A stretch of DNA of 8,237 bases. It comes from a virus (lineage: Duplodnaviria > Heunggongvirae > Uroviricota > Caudoviricetes). Location: the IMG/VR virus record IMGVR_UViG_2660238318_000005. One strand, 5' to 3'. This document shows positions 3,491 through 6,512 of this stretch, piece after piece; within the stretch, counting starts at the first letter, position 1, and each line of letters starts with the position of its first letter. Position numbers and translations under genes: made by a program. Under the pieces are notes generated by a model. The model was not told the origin of the DNA. It saw only the letters and a list, made by a program, of their open reading frames with translations, and did no database searches.

Positions 3491-3500
3491 NNNNNNNNNN
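3491..3500. other. Assembly/scaffold gap (N10)
   Basis: Run of 10 N; flanks are unrelated (tRNA 5' end on the left, mid-ORF sequence on the right). Confidence 0.9.
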
Positions 3501-3588
3501 TCCACCACAGGAAGAGACGGTGGTCAGCATTGCCGTTGATCCGGAATCTCCGGCTCAGTATCTCCAGCGCCAGAAACCACAACGGGAA

Positions 3589-3861
3589 GAGATGCCTGTA
3601 TACACGCGCTGGGTAAAAACGCAGAAATGCATGACGTGTGGCAATCAGGCAGATGATCCGCACCACATCATTGGTCATGGACTGGGAGGGATGGGAACAA
3701 AGGCTGACGATTTGTTTGTTATTCCGCTGTGTCGTAAATGCCATAACGAACTACACGCCGGGGTAAAAGATTTTGAAGAAAAACACGGTAGTCAGTTGTT
3801 GTTGCTGATTCGTTTTTTAATGCACGCGAGAAATTCGGGTGTTCTGAAGTGGAAAGCATAA
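3589..3861 (+). CDS. YbcO-like (DUF1364-type) Cys/His-rich putative zinc-binding nuclease-like phage protein; may extend upstream into the gap
   Basis: CxxC...HH...C..CH..H motif (CMTCGNQADDPHHIIGHGLGGMGTKADDLFVIPLCRKCHNELH). Sits immediately upstream of rusA, as ybcO does in DLP12. The frame is open back to the gap at 3501, so the true 5' end is uncertain. Confidence 0.55.
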   Translation, partial: EMPVYTRWVKTQKCMTCGNQADDPHHIIGHGLGGMGTKADDLFVIPLCRKCHNELHAGVKDFEEKHGSQLLLLIRFLMHARNSGVLKWKA

Positions 3862-4227
3862 ATGACCGAACGCATAGAATTTGTTTTGCCTTACCCGCCA
3901 ACGGTGAACACCTACTGGCGACGTCGTGGCAGCACATATTTTGTATCAAAAGCCGGTGAGCGTTATCGCCGTGATGTGGCGCTAATTGTTCGCCAGCAGC
4001 GACTGAAATTAAACCTGTCCGGAAGGCTGGCGATAAAGATTATTGCAGAGCCACCGGATAAGCGCCGTCGTGACCTGGACAATATCCTGAAGGCACCGCT
4101 GGATGCGCTGACGCATGCTGGACTACTTATAGACGACGAGCAGTTTGATGAAATCAATATTGTGCGCGGTCAGCTCGTTCCTGGTGGGCGGCTGGGGATA
4201 AAAATCACAGAACTGGGGTGCGCATGA
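3862..4227 (+). CDS. rusA: RusA-family Holliday junction resolvase
   Basis: 121-aa product with RusA hallmarks (RRRDLDN acidic motif, C-terminal GGRLGIKITELG). ATG follows the upstream stop directly (TAAATG). Confidence 0.85.
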   Translation: MTERIEFVLPYPPTVNTYWRRRGSTYFVSKAGERYRRDVALIVRQQRLKLNLSGRLAIKIIAEPPDKRRRDLDNILKAPLDALTHAGLLIDDEQFDEINIVRGQLVPGGRLGIKITELGCA

Positions 4228-4907
4228 ATAACCAGTATTTACAGTTTGTGCGTGAGCAGCTCATTATCGCCACCGCTGATTTGAGTGGGGCAACAAAAGG
4301 TCAGCTTGAAGCCTGGCAAGAGAATGCCATGTTCGATACAGGGCGTTACAGGCGTAAAAAAATCCGGTACCGCGATGAAGTGACTGGAAAAATGATAACG
4401 CGGGATAATCCACCAATCCCGGGAAAGCAATCGCTGGCGAAGGGGACGTCAATTCCTCTGGTCAGTCCGGTTGAGTTTTCGACATCATCGTGGCGGCGGG
4501 CTGTTCTGTCTCTTGAAGAGCACTATAAAGCCTGGTTGTTGTGGTGTTACAGCGGGAGTATTTGTTGGGAATATCAGATCGCGATAACACAGTGGGCGTG
4601 GAATGAATTTAATGCTCAATCCGGTACCAGAAAAATTGCAGGGAAAACGCAGGAACGCCTGAAAAAATTAATCTGGCTGGCGGCGCAGGCAGTAAAAGCA
4701 GAACTTTTTGGTGGGGAAGGTTATGAATACCAGGAGCTGGCATTACTGGCGGGAGTGACAACTAAAAACTGGTCCAAAACATTTACTCGTCACTGGGTTG
4801 CAATGAAACACATTTTTCACCGACTGGATAGTGAGGCTTTATTGTTTGTAATGAGAACACGTTCAAAAAAAAGACGGCATTTTCAAAGCAAAGTGTTGCA
4901 AAAGTAG
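4224..4907 (+). CDS. Putative late antiterminator Q, long type (Q82/QuuQ-like?)
   Basis: Assigned by position: directly after rusA (ATGA overlap) and directly before a consensus-like promoter, a tR'-like terminator, a tRNA cluster and a holin. I did not recognise the sequence itself. Confidence 0.5.
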   Translation: MNNQYLQFVREQLIIATADLSGATKGQLEAWQENAMFDTGRYRRKKIRYRDEVTGKMITRDNPPIPGKQSLAKGTSIPLVSPVEFSTSSWRRAVLSLEEHYKAWLLWCYSGSICWEYQIAITQWAWNEFNAQSGTRKIAGKTQERLKKLIWLAAQAVKAELFGGEGYEYQELALLAGVTTKNWSKTFTRHWVAMKHIFHRLDSEALLFVMRTRSKKRRHFQSKVLQK

Positions 4908-4924
4908 ATTGAAAGGCATATATT
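4896..4924 (+). promoter_or_regulatory. Candidate sigma70 late promoter (pR'-like) overlapping the Q-like gene's 3' end
   Basis: TTGCAA (4896-4901), 17-bp spacer, TATATT (4919-4924). About 50 bp upstream of the tR'-like terminator, which is the pR'/qut/tR' arrangement. Confidence 0.45.
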
Positions 4925-4974
4925 CATGCAAATCTGATACTTTGCCGATTTTGTACGTGATGGCAAAAGCAAAC

Positions 4975-5000
4975 AAAACCCGCCCACAAGCGGGTTTTTT
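4975..5000 (+). terminator. Rho-independent terminator, tR'-like
   Basis: Perfect 9-bp stem AAAACCCGC / GCGGGTTTT around loop CCACAA, then a T-run. Confidence 0.7.
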
Positions 5001-5105
5001 GTGCCACTTATCTCGGATAGACATGGTGAATGCGCTGGTGGAGGAGATAAGGGTGATTTTTGAATGCTTGCAACATTGATTTCGTAACGTTATTATCCTG
5101 CGCCC

Positions 5106-5181
5106 GGCCCTTTAGCTCAGTGGTGAGAGCGAGCGACTCATAATCGCCAGGTCGCTGGTTCAAATCCAGCAAGGGCCACCA
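5106..5181 (+). tRNA. tRNA with CAU anticodon, most similar to tRNA-Ile2 (lysidine type, ileX/ileZ-like)
   Basis: Cloverleaf by hand: acceptor GGCCCTT/AAGGGCC, anticodon loop CUCAUAA, T-loop TTCAAAT, 3' CCA encoded. Resembles E. coli ileX as I recall it; Met versus Ile2 cannot be settled from the anticodon alone. Confidence 0.75.
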
Positions 5182-5183
5182 AC

Positions 5184-5259
5184 CGCCACTAGCTCATCAG
5201 GAAAGAGCGTCAACCCTTTAAGTTGAGTGTGCGAGGTTCGAGTCCCCGGTGGCGGTCCA
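5184..5259 (+). tRNA. tRNA-like gene with atypical anticodon loop (CCUUUAA: UUU anticodon with C33); identity uncertain
   Basis: Acceptor CCGCCAC/GTGGCGG, D-arm GCTC...GAGC, anticodon stem TCAAC/GTTGA, T-loop TTCGAGT, 3' CCA. The loop lacks the near-universal U33. Confidence 0.55.
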
Positions 5260-5261
5260 GT

Positions 5262-5340: not shown

Positions 5341-5415
5341 GCGGGCATCGTATAATGGCTATTACCTCAGCCTTCCAAGCTGATGATGCGGGTTCGATTC
5401 CCGCTGCCCGCTCCA
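5341..5415 (+). tRNA. tRNA-Gly (UCC)
   Basis: GCGGGCATCGTATAATGGCTATTACCTCAGCCTTCCAAGCTG...; anticodon loop CUUCCAA; matches E. coli glyT-type tRNA-Gly as I recall it. Confidence 0.75.
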
Positions 5416-5474
5416 GTCAGAGTCTTTCAGTCTGCGATGATGGGAAATCCCGGAGTGACTGAAAGACGTTTAAG

Positions 5475-5547
5475 TTATGAATGATCGCCTTTTTTTGCAA
5501 AATTGCTGTGCAGAAATACTAACCTTCGGGCGTGCGATCATTCATAA
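5475..5547. repeat. Perfect 14-bp inverted repeat with 45-nt spacer in the tRNA-to-holin intergenic region
   Basis: TTATGAATGATCGC (5475-5488) is the exact reverse complement of GCGATCATTCATAA (5534-5547). A second 11-bp inverted repeat lies at 5422-5432 / 5457-5467. Confidence 0.6.
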
Positions 5548-5707
5548 GCACTCTGCTTTTATTCCGATTAACTGTGGGTGGTTTGTTGGATAGAGTGCTT
5601 TCCTTACTGTATATATCGTTTCGCCCGCTTTTGCGTTTTTTTCTTTTCAAATCCCTTTCATTTCTCAGTGTAAAACTACGCCATCCGTTATTTGCGGAGG
5701 TGAGGCT

Positions 5708-5923
5708 ATGAAATCCATGGACAAAATTTCAACGGGCATTGCCTACGGCACCTCCGCAGGCAGTGCTGGCTACTGGTTTTTACAGTGGCTTGATCAGGTC
5801 AGTCCGTCACAGTGGGCTGCGATTGGTGTACTGGGGAGTCTGGTTCTGGGCTTCCTGACTTATCTGACAAATCTGTACTTCAAAATCAGAGAAGACAAGC
5901 GTAAGGCTGCGAGAGGTGAATAA
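5708..5923 (+). CDS. S: Class II pinholin, phage 21 S-type (S21-like), with dual-start motif
   Basis: 71-aa product [30 protein letters not shown]... matches S21 as I recall it; the two Met codons (M1, M4) fit the antiholin/holin pair. Strong RBS GGAGGTGAGG upstream; stop overlaps the endolysin start (TAATG). Confidence 0.85.
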
Positions 5924-5939
5924 TGTCGCCATCATTACG
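5923..5939 (+). pseudogene. 5' stub (17 nt) of an R21-type SAR endolysin gene, interrupted
   Basis: ATGTCGCCATCATTACG is identical to the start of the endolysin copy at 6143; it is followed at 5940 by the GTAAGCG... element instead of CAAGGCTGTT. Confidence 0.6.
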
Positions 5940-6006
5940 GTAAGCGCCCCATCAGCGACGTCTTGTGAAAATTGTCCTGTCTGGCAACAATCGCGCCCAT
6001 CTATAT
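5940..6006 (+). mobile_element. Terminus of a repeated element, proposed IS66-family insertion sequence end (copy 1)
   Basis: GTAAGCGCCCCATCAGCGACGTCTTGTGAAAATTGTCCTGTCTGGCAACAATCGCGCCCATCTATA recurs at 6437-6502; both copies run into N10 gaps. IS66-family ends characteristically begin 5'-GTAA; family assignment is from memory. Confidence 0.4.
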
Positions 6007-6016
6007 NNNNNNNNNN
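6007..6016. other. Assembly/scaffold gap (N10)
   Basis: Run of 10 N between the repeated element end and a holin-internal sequence. Confidence 0.9.
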
Positions 6017-6017
6017 G

Positions 6018-6143
6018 GTCAGTCCATCACAGTGGGCTGCGATTGGTGTGCTGGGAAGTCTGCTTCTGGGGCTTCTGACTTATCTGACGAATCTGTATTT
6101 CAAAATAAGAGAAGATAAGCGTAAGGCTGCGAGAGGTGAATAA
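6018..6143 (+). CDS. S21-type pinholin, 3' portion of a second diverged copy, 5'-truncated by the gap
   Basis: Encodes ...[41 protein letters not shown], with several nucleotide and amino-acid differences from the copy at 5797-5923, so it is a paralogue and not the same locus. Confidence 0.7.
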
Positions 6144-6436
6144 TGTCGCCATCATTACGCAAGGCTGTTGCAGTTGCTATTGGTGGCGGGGCTGTTGCTA
6201 TAGCATCTGTGTTAATCACTGGCCCAGGTGGTAACGATGGTCTGGAAGGTGTCAGCTACATACCATACAAAGATATCATTGGTGTATGGACTGTATGTCA
6301 CGGACACACCGGAAAAGACATCATGCCTGGTAAAACGTATACCGAAGCAGAATGCAAAGCTCTCCTGAATAAAGACCTTGTCACTGTCGCCAGACAAATT
6401 AACCCGTACATCAAAGTCGATATACCGGAAACAACG
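6143..6436 (+). pseudogene. R21-type SAR endolysin (T4-lysozyme-like), N-terminal 98 codons, interrupted after ...DIPETT
   Basis: SAR-like N-terminus ([20 protein letters not shown]) and catalytic region [16 protein letters not shown] (E-x8-D-x5-T). Homology ends at 6436, where the GTAAGCG... element begins. Confidence 0.7.
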
Positions 6437-6502
6437 GTAAGCGCCCCATCAGCGACGTCTTGTGAAAATTGTCCTGTCTGGCAACAATCGCGCCCATCTA
6501 TA
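6437..6502 (+). mobile_element. Terminus of the same repeated element, proposed IS66-family end (copy 2)
   Basis: Same sequence as 5940-6005, again abutting an N10 gap. Confidence 0.4.
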
Positions 6503-6512
6503 NNNNNNNNNN
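6503..6512. other. Assembly/scaffold gap (N10)
   Basis: Run of 10 N. Confidence 0.9.

What the first reader, a model, noticed from the sequence alone, without database searches (positions are those of the whole stretch)
3491..6512. Window is a scaffold of four sequence blocks joined by N10 gaps, each breaking inside repeats
Each of the three N10 runs is flanked by sequence that recurs elsewhere in the window (tRNA 5' end; GTAAGCG... element end twice; holin 3' parts). The three holin copies and two endolysin 5' ends differ at several nucleotides, and the two Q/terminator/tRNA-leader modules are homologous but diverged. This is the signature of a short-read assembly collapsing around paralogous prophage modules and IS copies, so the gene order across the gaps is not established.
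Basis: seen in the sequence. Interest (0 to 1): 0.5.

Follow-up and report, generated by a model that had tools for sequence, protein, structure and literature searches.

The report
Mis-scaffolded contigs from three prophages
The window is a draft-assembly scaffold in which pieces of three different, IS-riddled lambdoid prophages of a Shigella/enteroinvasive E. coli-type genome were strung together with placeholder gaps, so the apparent tandem duplication of phage regulatory and lysis modules is an assembly artefact and not biology.

Summary
The three N10 runs are exactly where stated and split the window into blocks A (1-3490), B (3501-6006), C (6017-6502) and D (6513-8237). Comparison with complete genomes and gap-free same-lineage contigs shows the printed order is wrong, not just unproven.

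- **A and D are true neighbours.** Three gap-free contigs carry both outer junctions of the window (IS911/A and D/IS600). In them A and D are separated by only 777-778 bp: the rest of a tRNA-Ile2/Arg/Thr/Gly array plus most of a holin gene.
- **B is a different prophage** (DUF968, RusA, a Q of another family, tRNAs, holin, lysozyme::ISSfl3). It is contiguous in the S. flexneri SFBU1023 chromosome, where nothing like C or D follows it.
- **C is a third prophage**, at a third locus in a complete relative.
- **Why B and C sit between A and D.** Each contains a stretch identical to the A/D prophage (476 nt in B, 92-99 nt in C). Contig ends run 61-69 nt into IS911, IS600, ISSfl3 or a tRNA-array repeat.
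- **Block B's sequence is also suspect.** Its central patch carries A/D-type alleles, from either a collapsed consensus or gene conversion.

This is an ordinary artefact of low interest.

The parts
1..69 (-). Terminal 69 nt of IS911 (IS3 family), at the scaffold's left end
   Evidence: 100% identical to the sequence next to an annotated IS911 transposase CDS in L005. Relatives without the insertion match from window position 70 onward.
70..3490 (+). Block A, early/late-regulatory region of the A/D prophage: DnaC/IstB-like ATPase (90-968), DnaB-type helicase (965-2356), 85-aa ORF (2353-2610), NinH (2705-2905), Q antiterminator of family PF06530 (2898-3278), terminator-like hairpin (3365-3390), leader, and the first 13 nt of tRNA-Ile2 (3478-3490)
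   Evidence: 99.85% identical to L001 6001-9421 and 99.97% to L018/L019. RefSeq annotation, Pfam. The last 61 nt (3430-3490) lie inside an exact repeat of about 360 nt present twice in same-lineage contig L019.
3491..3500 (.). N10 placeholder gap 1: a false join between A and B
   Evidence: A and B map to different chromosomal loci.
3501..5939 (+). Block B, a second lambdoid prophage: DUF968 C-terminal part (3502-3861), RusA (3862-4227), Q antiterminator of family PF06323 (4224-4907), terminator (4976-5005), tRNA-Ile2(CAT) 5106-5181, tRNA-Lys(TTT) 5183-5259, tRNA-Thr 5262-5337, tRNA-Gly 5341-5415, class II holin (5708-5923), and the first 17 nt of lysozyme rrrD (5923-5939)
   Evidence: 99.5% identical to L002 (FDAARGOS_944, 0.65 Mb). 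Contiguous, IS junction included, at 99.3-99.8% in L011-L015, including the S. flexneri SFBU1023 chromosome. tRNAs, Pfam.
5282..5757 (+). 476-nt tract inside block B that is identical to the A/D prophage. It is the repeat through which A and D were linked to B. Alleles at 5489-5636 are A/D-type, not B-type.
   Evidence: Exact match to L001 9586-10061, L019 12134-12609 and L022 3647-4122. All 6 mismatches of block B against L015 fall at 5489-5636, and each carries the A/D allele.
5940..6006 (+). Left-terminal 67 nt of an ISSfl3-like IS66-family element inserted 17 nt into rrrD of prophage B
   Evidence: 100% identical to L007 3501-3567, 16 nt upstream of tnpA-tnpB-ISSfl3 transposase. The terminus is defined by differing flanks in 5 other copies. 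The same junction occurs in 5 independent assemblies.
6007..6016 (.). N10 placeholder gap 2: a false join between B and C
   Evidence: The left side is an IS end and the right side is mid-holin. B and C map to loci about 2.9 Mb apart in FDAARGOS_944.
6017..6436 (+). Block C, a third prophage: holin 3' part (6017-6143) and the first 294 nt of lysozyme rrrD (6143-6436). The stretch 6024-6115 (6017-6115 in more distant relatives) is identical to the A/D prophage holin.
   Evidence: 99.8% identical to L003 (FDAARGOS_944, 3.57 Mb). Exact matches to the A/D type.
6437..6502 (+). Left-terminal 66 nt of the same ISSfl3-like element, inserted 294 nt into rrrD of prophage C
   Evidence: Identical to 5940-6005. 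This junction was found in no complete E. coli genome, GTDB representative genome or IMG/VR contig.
6503..6512 (.). N10 placeholder gap 3: a false join between C and D
   Evidence: D's first base is the C/T SNP that separates the A/D-type holin from the C-type holin.
6513..8170 (+). Block D, lysis region of the A/D prophage: last 28 nt of the holin (6513-6540), 209-aa ORF of unknown function (6544-7173), lysozyme PF00959 (7239-7772), and an Rz-like spanin truncated at its 3' end (7769-8170)
   Evidence: 99.2% identical to L001 10200-11856 and 100% over 1725 nt to L018/L019. Pfam, PHROGs, RefSeq annotation.
8171..8237 (+). Left-terminal 67 nt of IS600 (IS3 family) inserted in Rz, at the scaffold's right end
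   Evidence: 100% identical to the sequence directly upstream of annotated IS600 transposase CDSs in L006 and L007.

Best explanation
The window is a de novo short-read scaffold, probably a whole record because both of its ends are IS ends. It comes from a Shigella/EIEC-type genome that carries several related lambdoid prophages and many IS copies. Only blocks A and D are physically adjacent.

**True structure.** The real locus is IS911 | replication genes - NinH - Q | about 778 nt (tRNA-Ile2, Arg, Thr, Gly and holin) | 209-aa ORF - lysozyme - Rz | IS600. Block B is the late-regulatory/lysis region of a second prophage whose lysozyme is interrupted by ISSfl3. Block C is the holin/lysozyme of a third prophage, interrupted by ISSfl3 at another site.

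**How the mis-join arose (inferred).** The roughly 778 nt between A and D consist almost wholly of sequence that also exists elsewhere in the genome.
- A leader/tRNA-array repeat of about 360 nt.
- A 476-nt tract identical to the copy in B.
- A 92-nt holin stretch identical to the copy in C.

The assembler put those shared stretches into contigs B and C together with those contigs' own unique flanks. Links from A and D into the shared stretches then made the scaffolder chain A, B, C and D in the order in which the shared stretches occur along the A/D prophage. The implied distances were zero or negative, so each join received the minimum placeholder of 10 N.

**Shown versus inferred.** Shown: the block identities, the separate loci, the A-D adjacency in same-lineage assemblies, and the repeat content at 7 of the 8 contig ends. 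Inferred: the scaffolding mechanism and the assembler type.
For: 1. One complete genome (NZ_CP065613) holds A+D, B and C at about 0.90, 0.65 and 3.57 Mb, at 99.0-99.8% identity.
2. Gap-free IMG/VR contigs L018, L019 and L022 carry both the IS911/A and the D/IS600 junctions. A matches at 99.97% and D at 100%, with exactly 777-778 nt between them and no B or C.
3. Block B, including its ISSfl3 junction, is contiguous in 5 independent assemblies. In the S. flexneri SFBU1023 chromosome it continues into ISSfl3 and IS600, with no C or D within 7 kb.
4. Coordinates along the A/D prophage L001 follow the block order:

| Piece | L001 coordinates |
|---|---|
| A ends | 9421 |
| Shared tract in B | 9586-10061 |
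| Shared tract in C | 10101-10199 |
| D starts | 10200 |

5. Contig ends run 69 nt (IS911), 61 nt (leader/tRNA repeat), 67 and 66 nt (ISSfl3) and 67 nt (IS600) into multi-copy sequence. D starts exactly at a paralogue-discriminating SNP.
6. All 6 mismatches between block B and L015 lie in 5489-5636 and carry the A/D-type allele, as expected for a collapsed repeat.
7. Runs of 10 N are a conventional gap placeholder, not a size estimate.
Against: - No reads are available, so the source strain's own arrangement is inferred from relatives. These are very close: identical IS junctions, and D is 100% identical.
- The left end of B (3501) lies in a DUF968 gene that is contiguous and single-copy in all relatives examined, so that break is unexplained.
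- The C junction (rrrD nt 294::ISSfl3) has no counterpart in any collection searched. Block C's origin in the source strain therefore rests only on 99.8% identity of its prophage part to a third locus in a relative.
- The overhang lengths (61-69 nt) do not fit one exact k-mer size.
- The minimum-gap rule of particular assemblers is recalled from memory and was not found in the paper library.
Confidence: 0.9

Rival explanations
1. The scaffold was ordered by reference, not by read pairs. Contigs were aligned to a reference genome that holds an A/D-type prophage, sorted by the start of their match, and joined with 10 N. It is still an artefact, reached by a different route.
For: The block order equals the order of the BLAST match starts on the A/D prophage: 6001, 9392, 10101 and 10200 in L001. 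Overlapping placements are tolerated by such tools (background knowledge). This route also explains why B could be placed even though its first 1.6 kb has no counterpart there.
Against: The record is only 8.2 kb and stops 67-69 nt inside IS911 and IS600. A reference-ordered pseudomolecule would normally continue across those points. The asymmetry of overhangs, present at right ends and absent at internal left ends, looks more like the output of a graph assembler.
Confidence: 0.25
2. The printed order is physically real in the source strain. IS- and prophage-mediated rearrangements brought pieces of three prophages together, and the gaps merely hide IS copies.
For: Shigella/EIEC genomes are heavily rearranged by IS elements. 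This same prophage carries different IS insertions in different relatives. Two of the gaps do follow an IS end.
Against: - The right side of every gap is not an IS end. It is an internal point of a DUF968 gene or of a holin gene.
- Gap 1 would join 13 nt of a tRNA to mid-DUF968.
- Assemblies with identical outer IS junctions have A-778 nt-D.
- B continues elsewhere in a complete Shigella genome.
- The order coincides exactly with the order of the shared tracts along one prophage, which a real rearrangement would not predict.
Confidence: 0.04
3. The A/D-type patch in the middle of block B (5489-5636, within the 476-nt tract) is real inter-prophage gene conversion in the source strain, not a collapsed consensus.
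For: Co-resident lambdoid prophages recombine (background knowledge). The tract is bounded by B-type sequence on both sides, and all 6 changes go to the A/D allele. Position 5418 already carries the A/D allele in the Shigella-type assemblies L011-L013 and L015, which shows that mosaicism exists here.
Against: Five independent assemblies of the same B locus, with the same ISSfl3 junction, all keep the B-type alleles at 5489, 5532, 5533, 5577 and 5636. The same tract is also where the mis-scaffolding links must have arisen, so a single cause (collapse) explains both observations.
Confidence: 0.3

Closest known systems
Repeat-induced mis-scaffolding or collapse in short-read bacterial assemblies (paralogous lambdoid prophages plus IS copies, as is usual for Shigella, EIEC and EHEC drafts)
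   Same: Fixed-length N placeholders. Contig ends lie inside IS elements and prophage paralogues. The blocks map to separate loci in finished genomes. A hybrid consensus sits inside a collapsed repeat.
   Different: Nothing unusual. The only particular feature is that the order of the passenger contigs reproduces the order of the shared tracts along one prophage.
phiP27-like and Stx-phage-like lambdoid prophage late region (Q - tR' - tRNA array - holin S - lysozyme R - Rz)
   Same: Block A plus block D reproduce this layout. The replication/Q part is 92.7% identical to phage phiP27 and about 89% identical to Stx2-converting phages. The tRNA array lies downstream of Q, as it does in those phages.
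   Different: There is no toxin gene. A 209-aa ORF of unknown function sits between the holin and the lysozyme. IS911 lies upstream and IS600 interrupts Rz.
ISSfl3 (IS66 family), IS600 and IS911 (IS3 family) of Shigella flexneri/EIEC
   Same: The three kinds of terminal sequence in the window are 100% identical to annotated copies.
   Different: Only 66-69 nt of each is present, so their completeness and target duplications cannot be seen. The rrrD nt 294 insertion site was not seen elsewhere.

Membership tests
Assembly artefact: repeat-induced false scaffold joins | Blocks separated by N runs of a fixed, conventional length | tested here: met
   There are three runs of exactly 10 N. N10 is used as a gap placeholder and as a split threshold.
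Assembly artefact: repeat-induced false scaffold joins | Contig ends lie in sequence that is multi-copy in the genome | tested here: met
   Seven of the eight ends meet this. They are IS911, the leader/tRNA repeat, ISSfl3 (twice), IS600, the C-left holin stretch shared with the A/D type, and D-left at a paralogue SNP. B-left is unexplained.
Assembly artefact: repeat-induced false scaffold joins | The joined blocks lie at separate loci in finished genomes of close relatives | tested here: met
   In NZ_CP065613 they lie at 0.65, 0.90 and 3.57 Mb. B continues elsewhere in S. flexneri SFBU1023.
Assembly artefact: repeat-induced false scaffold joins | Gap-free assemblies of the same lineage show a different, simpler arrangement | tested here: met
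   L018, L019 and L022 show IS911-A-777/778 nt-D-IS600.
Assembly artefact: repeat-induced false scaffold joins | Read-level signature: excess coverage and mixed alleles in collapsed tracts, and discordant pairs across the joins | not testable with these tools
   No reads are available for the source assembly.
IS66 family (ISSfl3-like) | Terminal inverted repeat beginning GTAAGCG, followed by tnpA-tnpB-tnpC | tested here: met
   The window's 67-mer is 100% identical to the sequence 16 nt upstream of annotated tnpA, tnpB and an ISSfl3-family transposase in L007. The terminus was fixed by comparing the flanks of 7 copies. That GTAAGCG is a family-wide terminus is recalled from memory.
IS66 family (ISSfl3-like) | 8-bp target-site duplication flanking a complete element | not testable with these tools
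   Only one end of each copy is in the window. In S. flexneri L012 the element is itself cut by IS600.
Lambdoid late operon (Q antiterminator - terminator - holin - endolysin - spanin) | Q gene followed by a terminator, then the lysis cassette on the same strand | tested here: met
   Pfam and PHROGs give Q (PF06530 and PF06323), holin PF04971, lysozyme PF00959 and an Rz-like spanin. Hairpin plus T-run at 3365-3394 and 4976-5005. The layout matches annotated relatives.
Tandem duplication of the Q/tRNA/holin module (what the window looks like at face value) | Both copies physically adjacent on one molecule | tested here: not met
   The copies belong to different prophages at different loci. The two Q genes are not even homologous.

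The most novel reading that the evidence does not exclude
The IS junctions may record real biology in one strain. On this reading, all three co-resident lambdoid prophages have had their lysis cassettes knocked out independently: ISSfl3 at nt 17 of one rrrD, ISSfl3 at nt 294 of a paralogous rrrD, and IS600 in Rz. The A/D-type patch in block B would be genuine inter-prophage gene conversion. Together these would document repeated IS-mediated grounding and sequence homogenisation of prophages in a Shigella/EIEC lineage.
Probability: 0.3. Interest if true: 0.25.

Novelty: not a real feature. Interest (0 to 1): 0.08.

Why it matters
The value is mainly quality control. Read at face value, the window suggests a prophage with two Q/tRNA/holin modules and three holin copies in tandem. 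That is false. Any annotation, synteny analysis or prophage prediction run on this record would produce a chimeric 'phage' built from three prophages.

The analysis also shows that block B's sequence is not trustworthy at six positions. It recovers the true locus, A - about 778 nt - D. Beyond that the content is ordinary: IS-riddled lambdoid prophage remnants typical of Shigella and enteroinvasive E. coli.

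Tried and rejected
1. **A k = 99 de Bruijn signature.** C's first 99 nt are identical to the A/D holin of distant relatives. I rejected the idea because same-lineage contigs have a SNP at the equivalent of 6023, so the exact match is only 92 nt.
2. **A single exact k from the overhangs.** The overhangs of 61, 66, 67, 67 and 69 nt suggest k of about 70 but do not fit one value, so this stays a loose inference.
3. **A citable source for an assembler-specific rule that gaps under 10 bp are written as 10 N.** I recall this from the Velvet manual. 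The paper library gave only the general use of N10 as a gap placeholder and split threshold.
4. **A DUF968 paralogue or IS to explain the left end of B.** None turned up in any fetched locus, and the upstream part is single-copy in FDAARGOS_944.
5. **The C junction (rrrD nt 294::ISSfl3).** I searched complete E. coli genomes, GTDB representative genomes and IMG/VR and found no hit.
6. **'ACG' as part of the IS terminus.** Both junctions share it, but the flanks of five other copies differ, so it is not part of the element.
7. **Homology of the two Q genes.** They belong to different Pfam families and give no BLASTP alignment.
8. **A known phage covering the window.** No record covers 80% or more of it.

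Full report
**Observation.** The window contains exactly three N runs, each 10 long, at 3491-3500, 6007-6016 and 6503-6512. They define blocks A (1-3490), B (3501-6006), C (6017-6502) and D (6513-8237).

- The 15-mer that ends A recurs at the start of B's first tRNA, with none expected by chance.
- The GTAAGCG... element end is identical over 66 nt at 5940-6005 and 6437-6502, with none expected.
- The holin 3' part is present three times. B and C differ at 11 positions. D differs from the other two at 5-6 of 28 positions.

Three sub-claims fail.
- The right flank of gap 1 recurs nowhere in the window.
- The two endolysin 5' ends are identical over the 17 nt they share.
- The two Q genes are unrelated. 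They fall in PF06530 and PF06323 and give no BLASTP alignment. Only the terminator/leader/tRNA stretch is alignable, with 139 of 212 positions identical.

Window 1-69 is an IS911 terminus and 8171-8237 is an IS600 terminus, each 100% identical to annotated copies.

**What the blocks are.**
- *Block A* carries a DnaC/IstB-like ATPase, a DnaB-type helicase, a small ORF, NinH, a Q antiterminator, a terminator, a leader, and the first 13 nt of a tRNA.
- *Block D* carries the last 28 nt of a class II holin, a 209-aa ORF of unknown function, a lysozyme, and an Rz-like spanin cut by IS600.
- *Block B* carries the C-terminal part of a DUF968 gene, RusA, a Q of another family, a terminator, four tRNAs, a holin, and 17 nt of lysozyme rrrD followed by 67 nt of an element.
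- *Block C* carries a holin 3' part and 294 nt of rrrD, followed by 66 nt of the same element.

The element is the left end of an ISSfl3-like IS66-family insertion sequence. It is 100% identical to the sequence 16 nt upstream of tnpA-tnpB-ISSfl3 transposase on the large plasmid of EIEC strain CFSAN029787. Its terminus lies exactly at GTAAGCG, because the flanks of five other copies all differ.

**Where the blocks belong.** No complete E. coli genome covers 80% or more of the window at one place. In several EIEC-type genomes one place of about 5.86 kb holds A and D, separated only by four tRNAs and a holin:

| Window | L001 (CFSAN029787) | Identity |
|---|---|---|
| A, 70-3490 | 6001-9421 | 99.85% |
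| D, 6513-8169 | 10200-11856 | 99.2% |

In the single complete genome FDAARGOS_944, A+D lie at about 0.90 Mb. B lies at about 0.65 Mb (99.5% over 3501-5939). C lies at 3.57 Mb (99.8% over 6017-6436). All three sit in separate prophages with intact lysozymes.

The strongest evidence comes from contigs that share the window's own IS insertions. IMG/VR contigs L018, L019 and L022 contain both the IS911/A junction and the D/IS600 junction and have no N. A matches at 99.97% and D at 100% over 1725 nt, with exactly 777-778 nt between them and no B or C.

Block B, including its rrrD::ISSfl3 junction, is contiguous in five independent assemblies. Two of these are complete chromosomes: 'E. coli' ECMA0423 and Shigella flexneri SFBU1023. 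In the Shigella genome it continues into ISSfl3 and then IS600, and nothing resembling C or D occurs within 7 kb. The C junction was found nowhere.

**Why B and C were placed between A and D.** Exact-match coordinates along the A/D prophage reproduce the block order:

| Piece | L001 coordinates |
|---|---|
| A ends | 9421 |
| 476-nt tract inside B (window 5282-5757) | 9586-10061 |
| C's first 99 nt | 10101-10199 |
| D starts | 10200 |

In same-lineage contigs C's exact match is 92 nt, window 6024-6115. The tract in B is also exactly identical to the same-lineage A/D copies. The scaffold therefore follows the A/D prophage's path through shared stretches that the assembler had incorporated into contigs B and C. 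Those contigs' unique flanks, which belong to other prophages, were carried along as passengers.

Two pieces of the A/D prophage are absent from the scaffold.
- A 164-nt piece: the rest of tRNA-Ile2, tRNA-Arg and the start of tRNA-Thr. It is multi-copy at 100% identity in relatives. It also lies within an exact repeat of about 360 nt present twice in same-lineage contig L019.
- A 39-nt piece of the holin.

**Anatomy of the contig ends.**

| Contig end | What it runs into | Overhang |
|---|---|---|
| A-left | IS911 | 69 nt |
| A-right | leader/tRNA repeat | 61 nt (69 nt in relative RMDEC364) |
| B-right | ISSfl3 | 67 nt |
| C-right | ISSfl3 | 66 nt |
| D-right | IS600 | 67 nt |

Internal left ends show no overhang. 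D begins exactly at the C/T SNP that separates the A/D-type holin from the C-type. This asymmetry, together with overhangs of roughly 61-69 nt, fits a de Bruijn-graph assembler with k near 70. Such an assembler would print later scaffold members without their first k-1 bases and write a minimum of 10 N when the estimated gap is tiny or negative. That behaviour is recalled from an assembler manual and was not found in the paper library. The library only confirms that N10 is a conventional gap placeholder. Reference-guided ordering would give the same order and is kept as a rival mechanism.

**Sequence quality inside block B.** Against L015, which has the same locus and the same ISSfl3 junction, block B has only six mismatches: 5489, 5532, 5533, 5577, 5607 and 5636. 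All lie inside the 476-nt tract. At each the window carries the A/D-prophage allele, while the independent assemblies carry the B-type allele. This is either a collapsed or bubble-popped consensus or real gene conversion. Only reads can decide.

**Unexplained.** The left end of B (3501) lies mid-DUF968. In all relatives that gene is contiguous and its upstream part is single-copy. The source strain may have an IS or a paralogue there.

**Comparison with what is known, and verdict.** Everything matches the well-known behaviour of short-read assemblies of Shigella/EIEC/EHEC genomes, where co-resident lambdoid prophages and hundreds of IS copies break and mislead assemblies.
- The A/D module resembles phiP27 and Stx-phage late regions.
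The order is wrong for B and C and right for A to D, with about 778 nt missing rather than about 10.
- The apparent tandem module duplication is not a real feature.
- Interest is low.

The only mildly interesting biological residue is that three prophages in one strain each carry an IS in their lysis cassette. Of these insertions, B's ISSfl3 junction and the IS600 insertion in Rz recur in independent assemblies, while the C junction is unconfirmed.

Noticed in passing
window 5183-5259, compared with L018 4658-4734 and L009 5080-5151: The paralogous prophage tRNA arrays differ by anticodon changes. The second tRNA is Arg(TCT) in the A/D type. In block B it is Lys(TTT), with anticodon loop CCTTTAA (C at position 33 instead of the usual U) and a low Rfam score of 44 bits against 65-72 for its neighbours. 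In relative RMDEC364 the fourth tRNA reads Val(TAC) instead of Gly(TCC) and has a 1-nt deletion. These could be decaying or anticodon-shifted phage tRNAs.
   Followed up: partly
window 6544-7173 (+): A 209-aa ORF sits between the holin and the lysozyme of the A/D prophage. It has no Pfam hit and matches only PHROG families of unknown function (phrog_1085, E = 1e-73). It is conserved in EIEC relatives and annotated as frameshifted in FDAARGOS_944.
   Followed up: partly
window 5923-6006, 6143-6502, 7769-8237 and 1-69: The lysis cassettes of all three prophages represented here are interrupted by IS elements: ISSfl3 at rrrD nt 17, ISSfl3 at rrrD nt 294, and IS600 about 67 nt before the end of Rz. 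IS911 sits 10 nt before the stop of the gene upstream of the replication ATPase. Relatives carry other IS600, IS911 and ISSso6 insertions in the same prophage (L005, L006).
   Followed up: partly
window 2610-2704, compared with 3862-4227: The 'intergenic' stretch between the 85-aa ORF and ninH in block A looks like a rusA gene with an internal deletion. Its start resembles the 5' end of block B's rusA (…GAGTTTGTTTTGCC…). Window 2638-2694 is 77% identical to the 3' end of that rusA (4160-4216).
   Followed up: no
L016 and L020 (IMGVR_UViG_2667527998_000003, 7777 nt): Another public contig has block-A-type sequence at one end, stopping at window-equivalent 3420. It has block-D-type sequence at the other end, with about 2.5 kb between them that was not fetched. 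It may be a similarly mis-scaffolded record from another isolate.
   Followed up: no
window 4224-4907, compared with L002 5724-6412: The PF06323-type Q gene is intact in the window (227 aa from the ATG). It is annotated as frameshifted in the closest complete genome, FDAARGOS_944.
   Followed up: no
L012 (S. flexneri SFBU1023, reverse complement 869-4080) and L007 4621-7067: On both the Shigella chromosome and the EIEC invasion-type plasmid, the ISSfl3 copy is itself truncated by an IS600 insertion. The cut falls at different points: after about 1.94 kb in L012 and after about 2.4 kb in L007. These are nested IS insertions.
   Followed up: no
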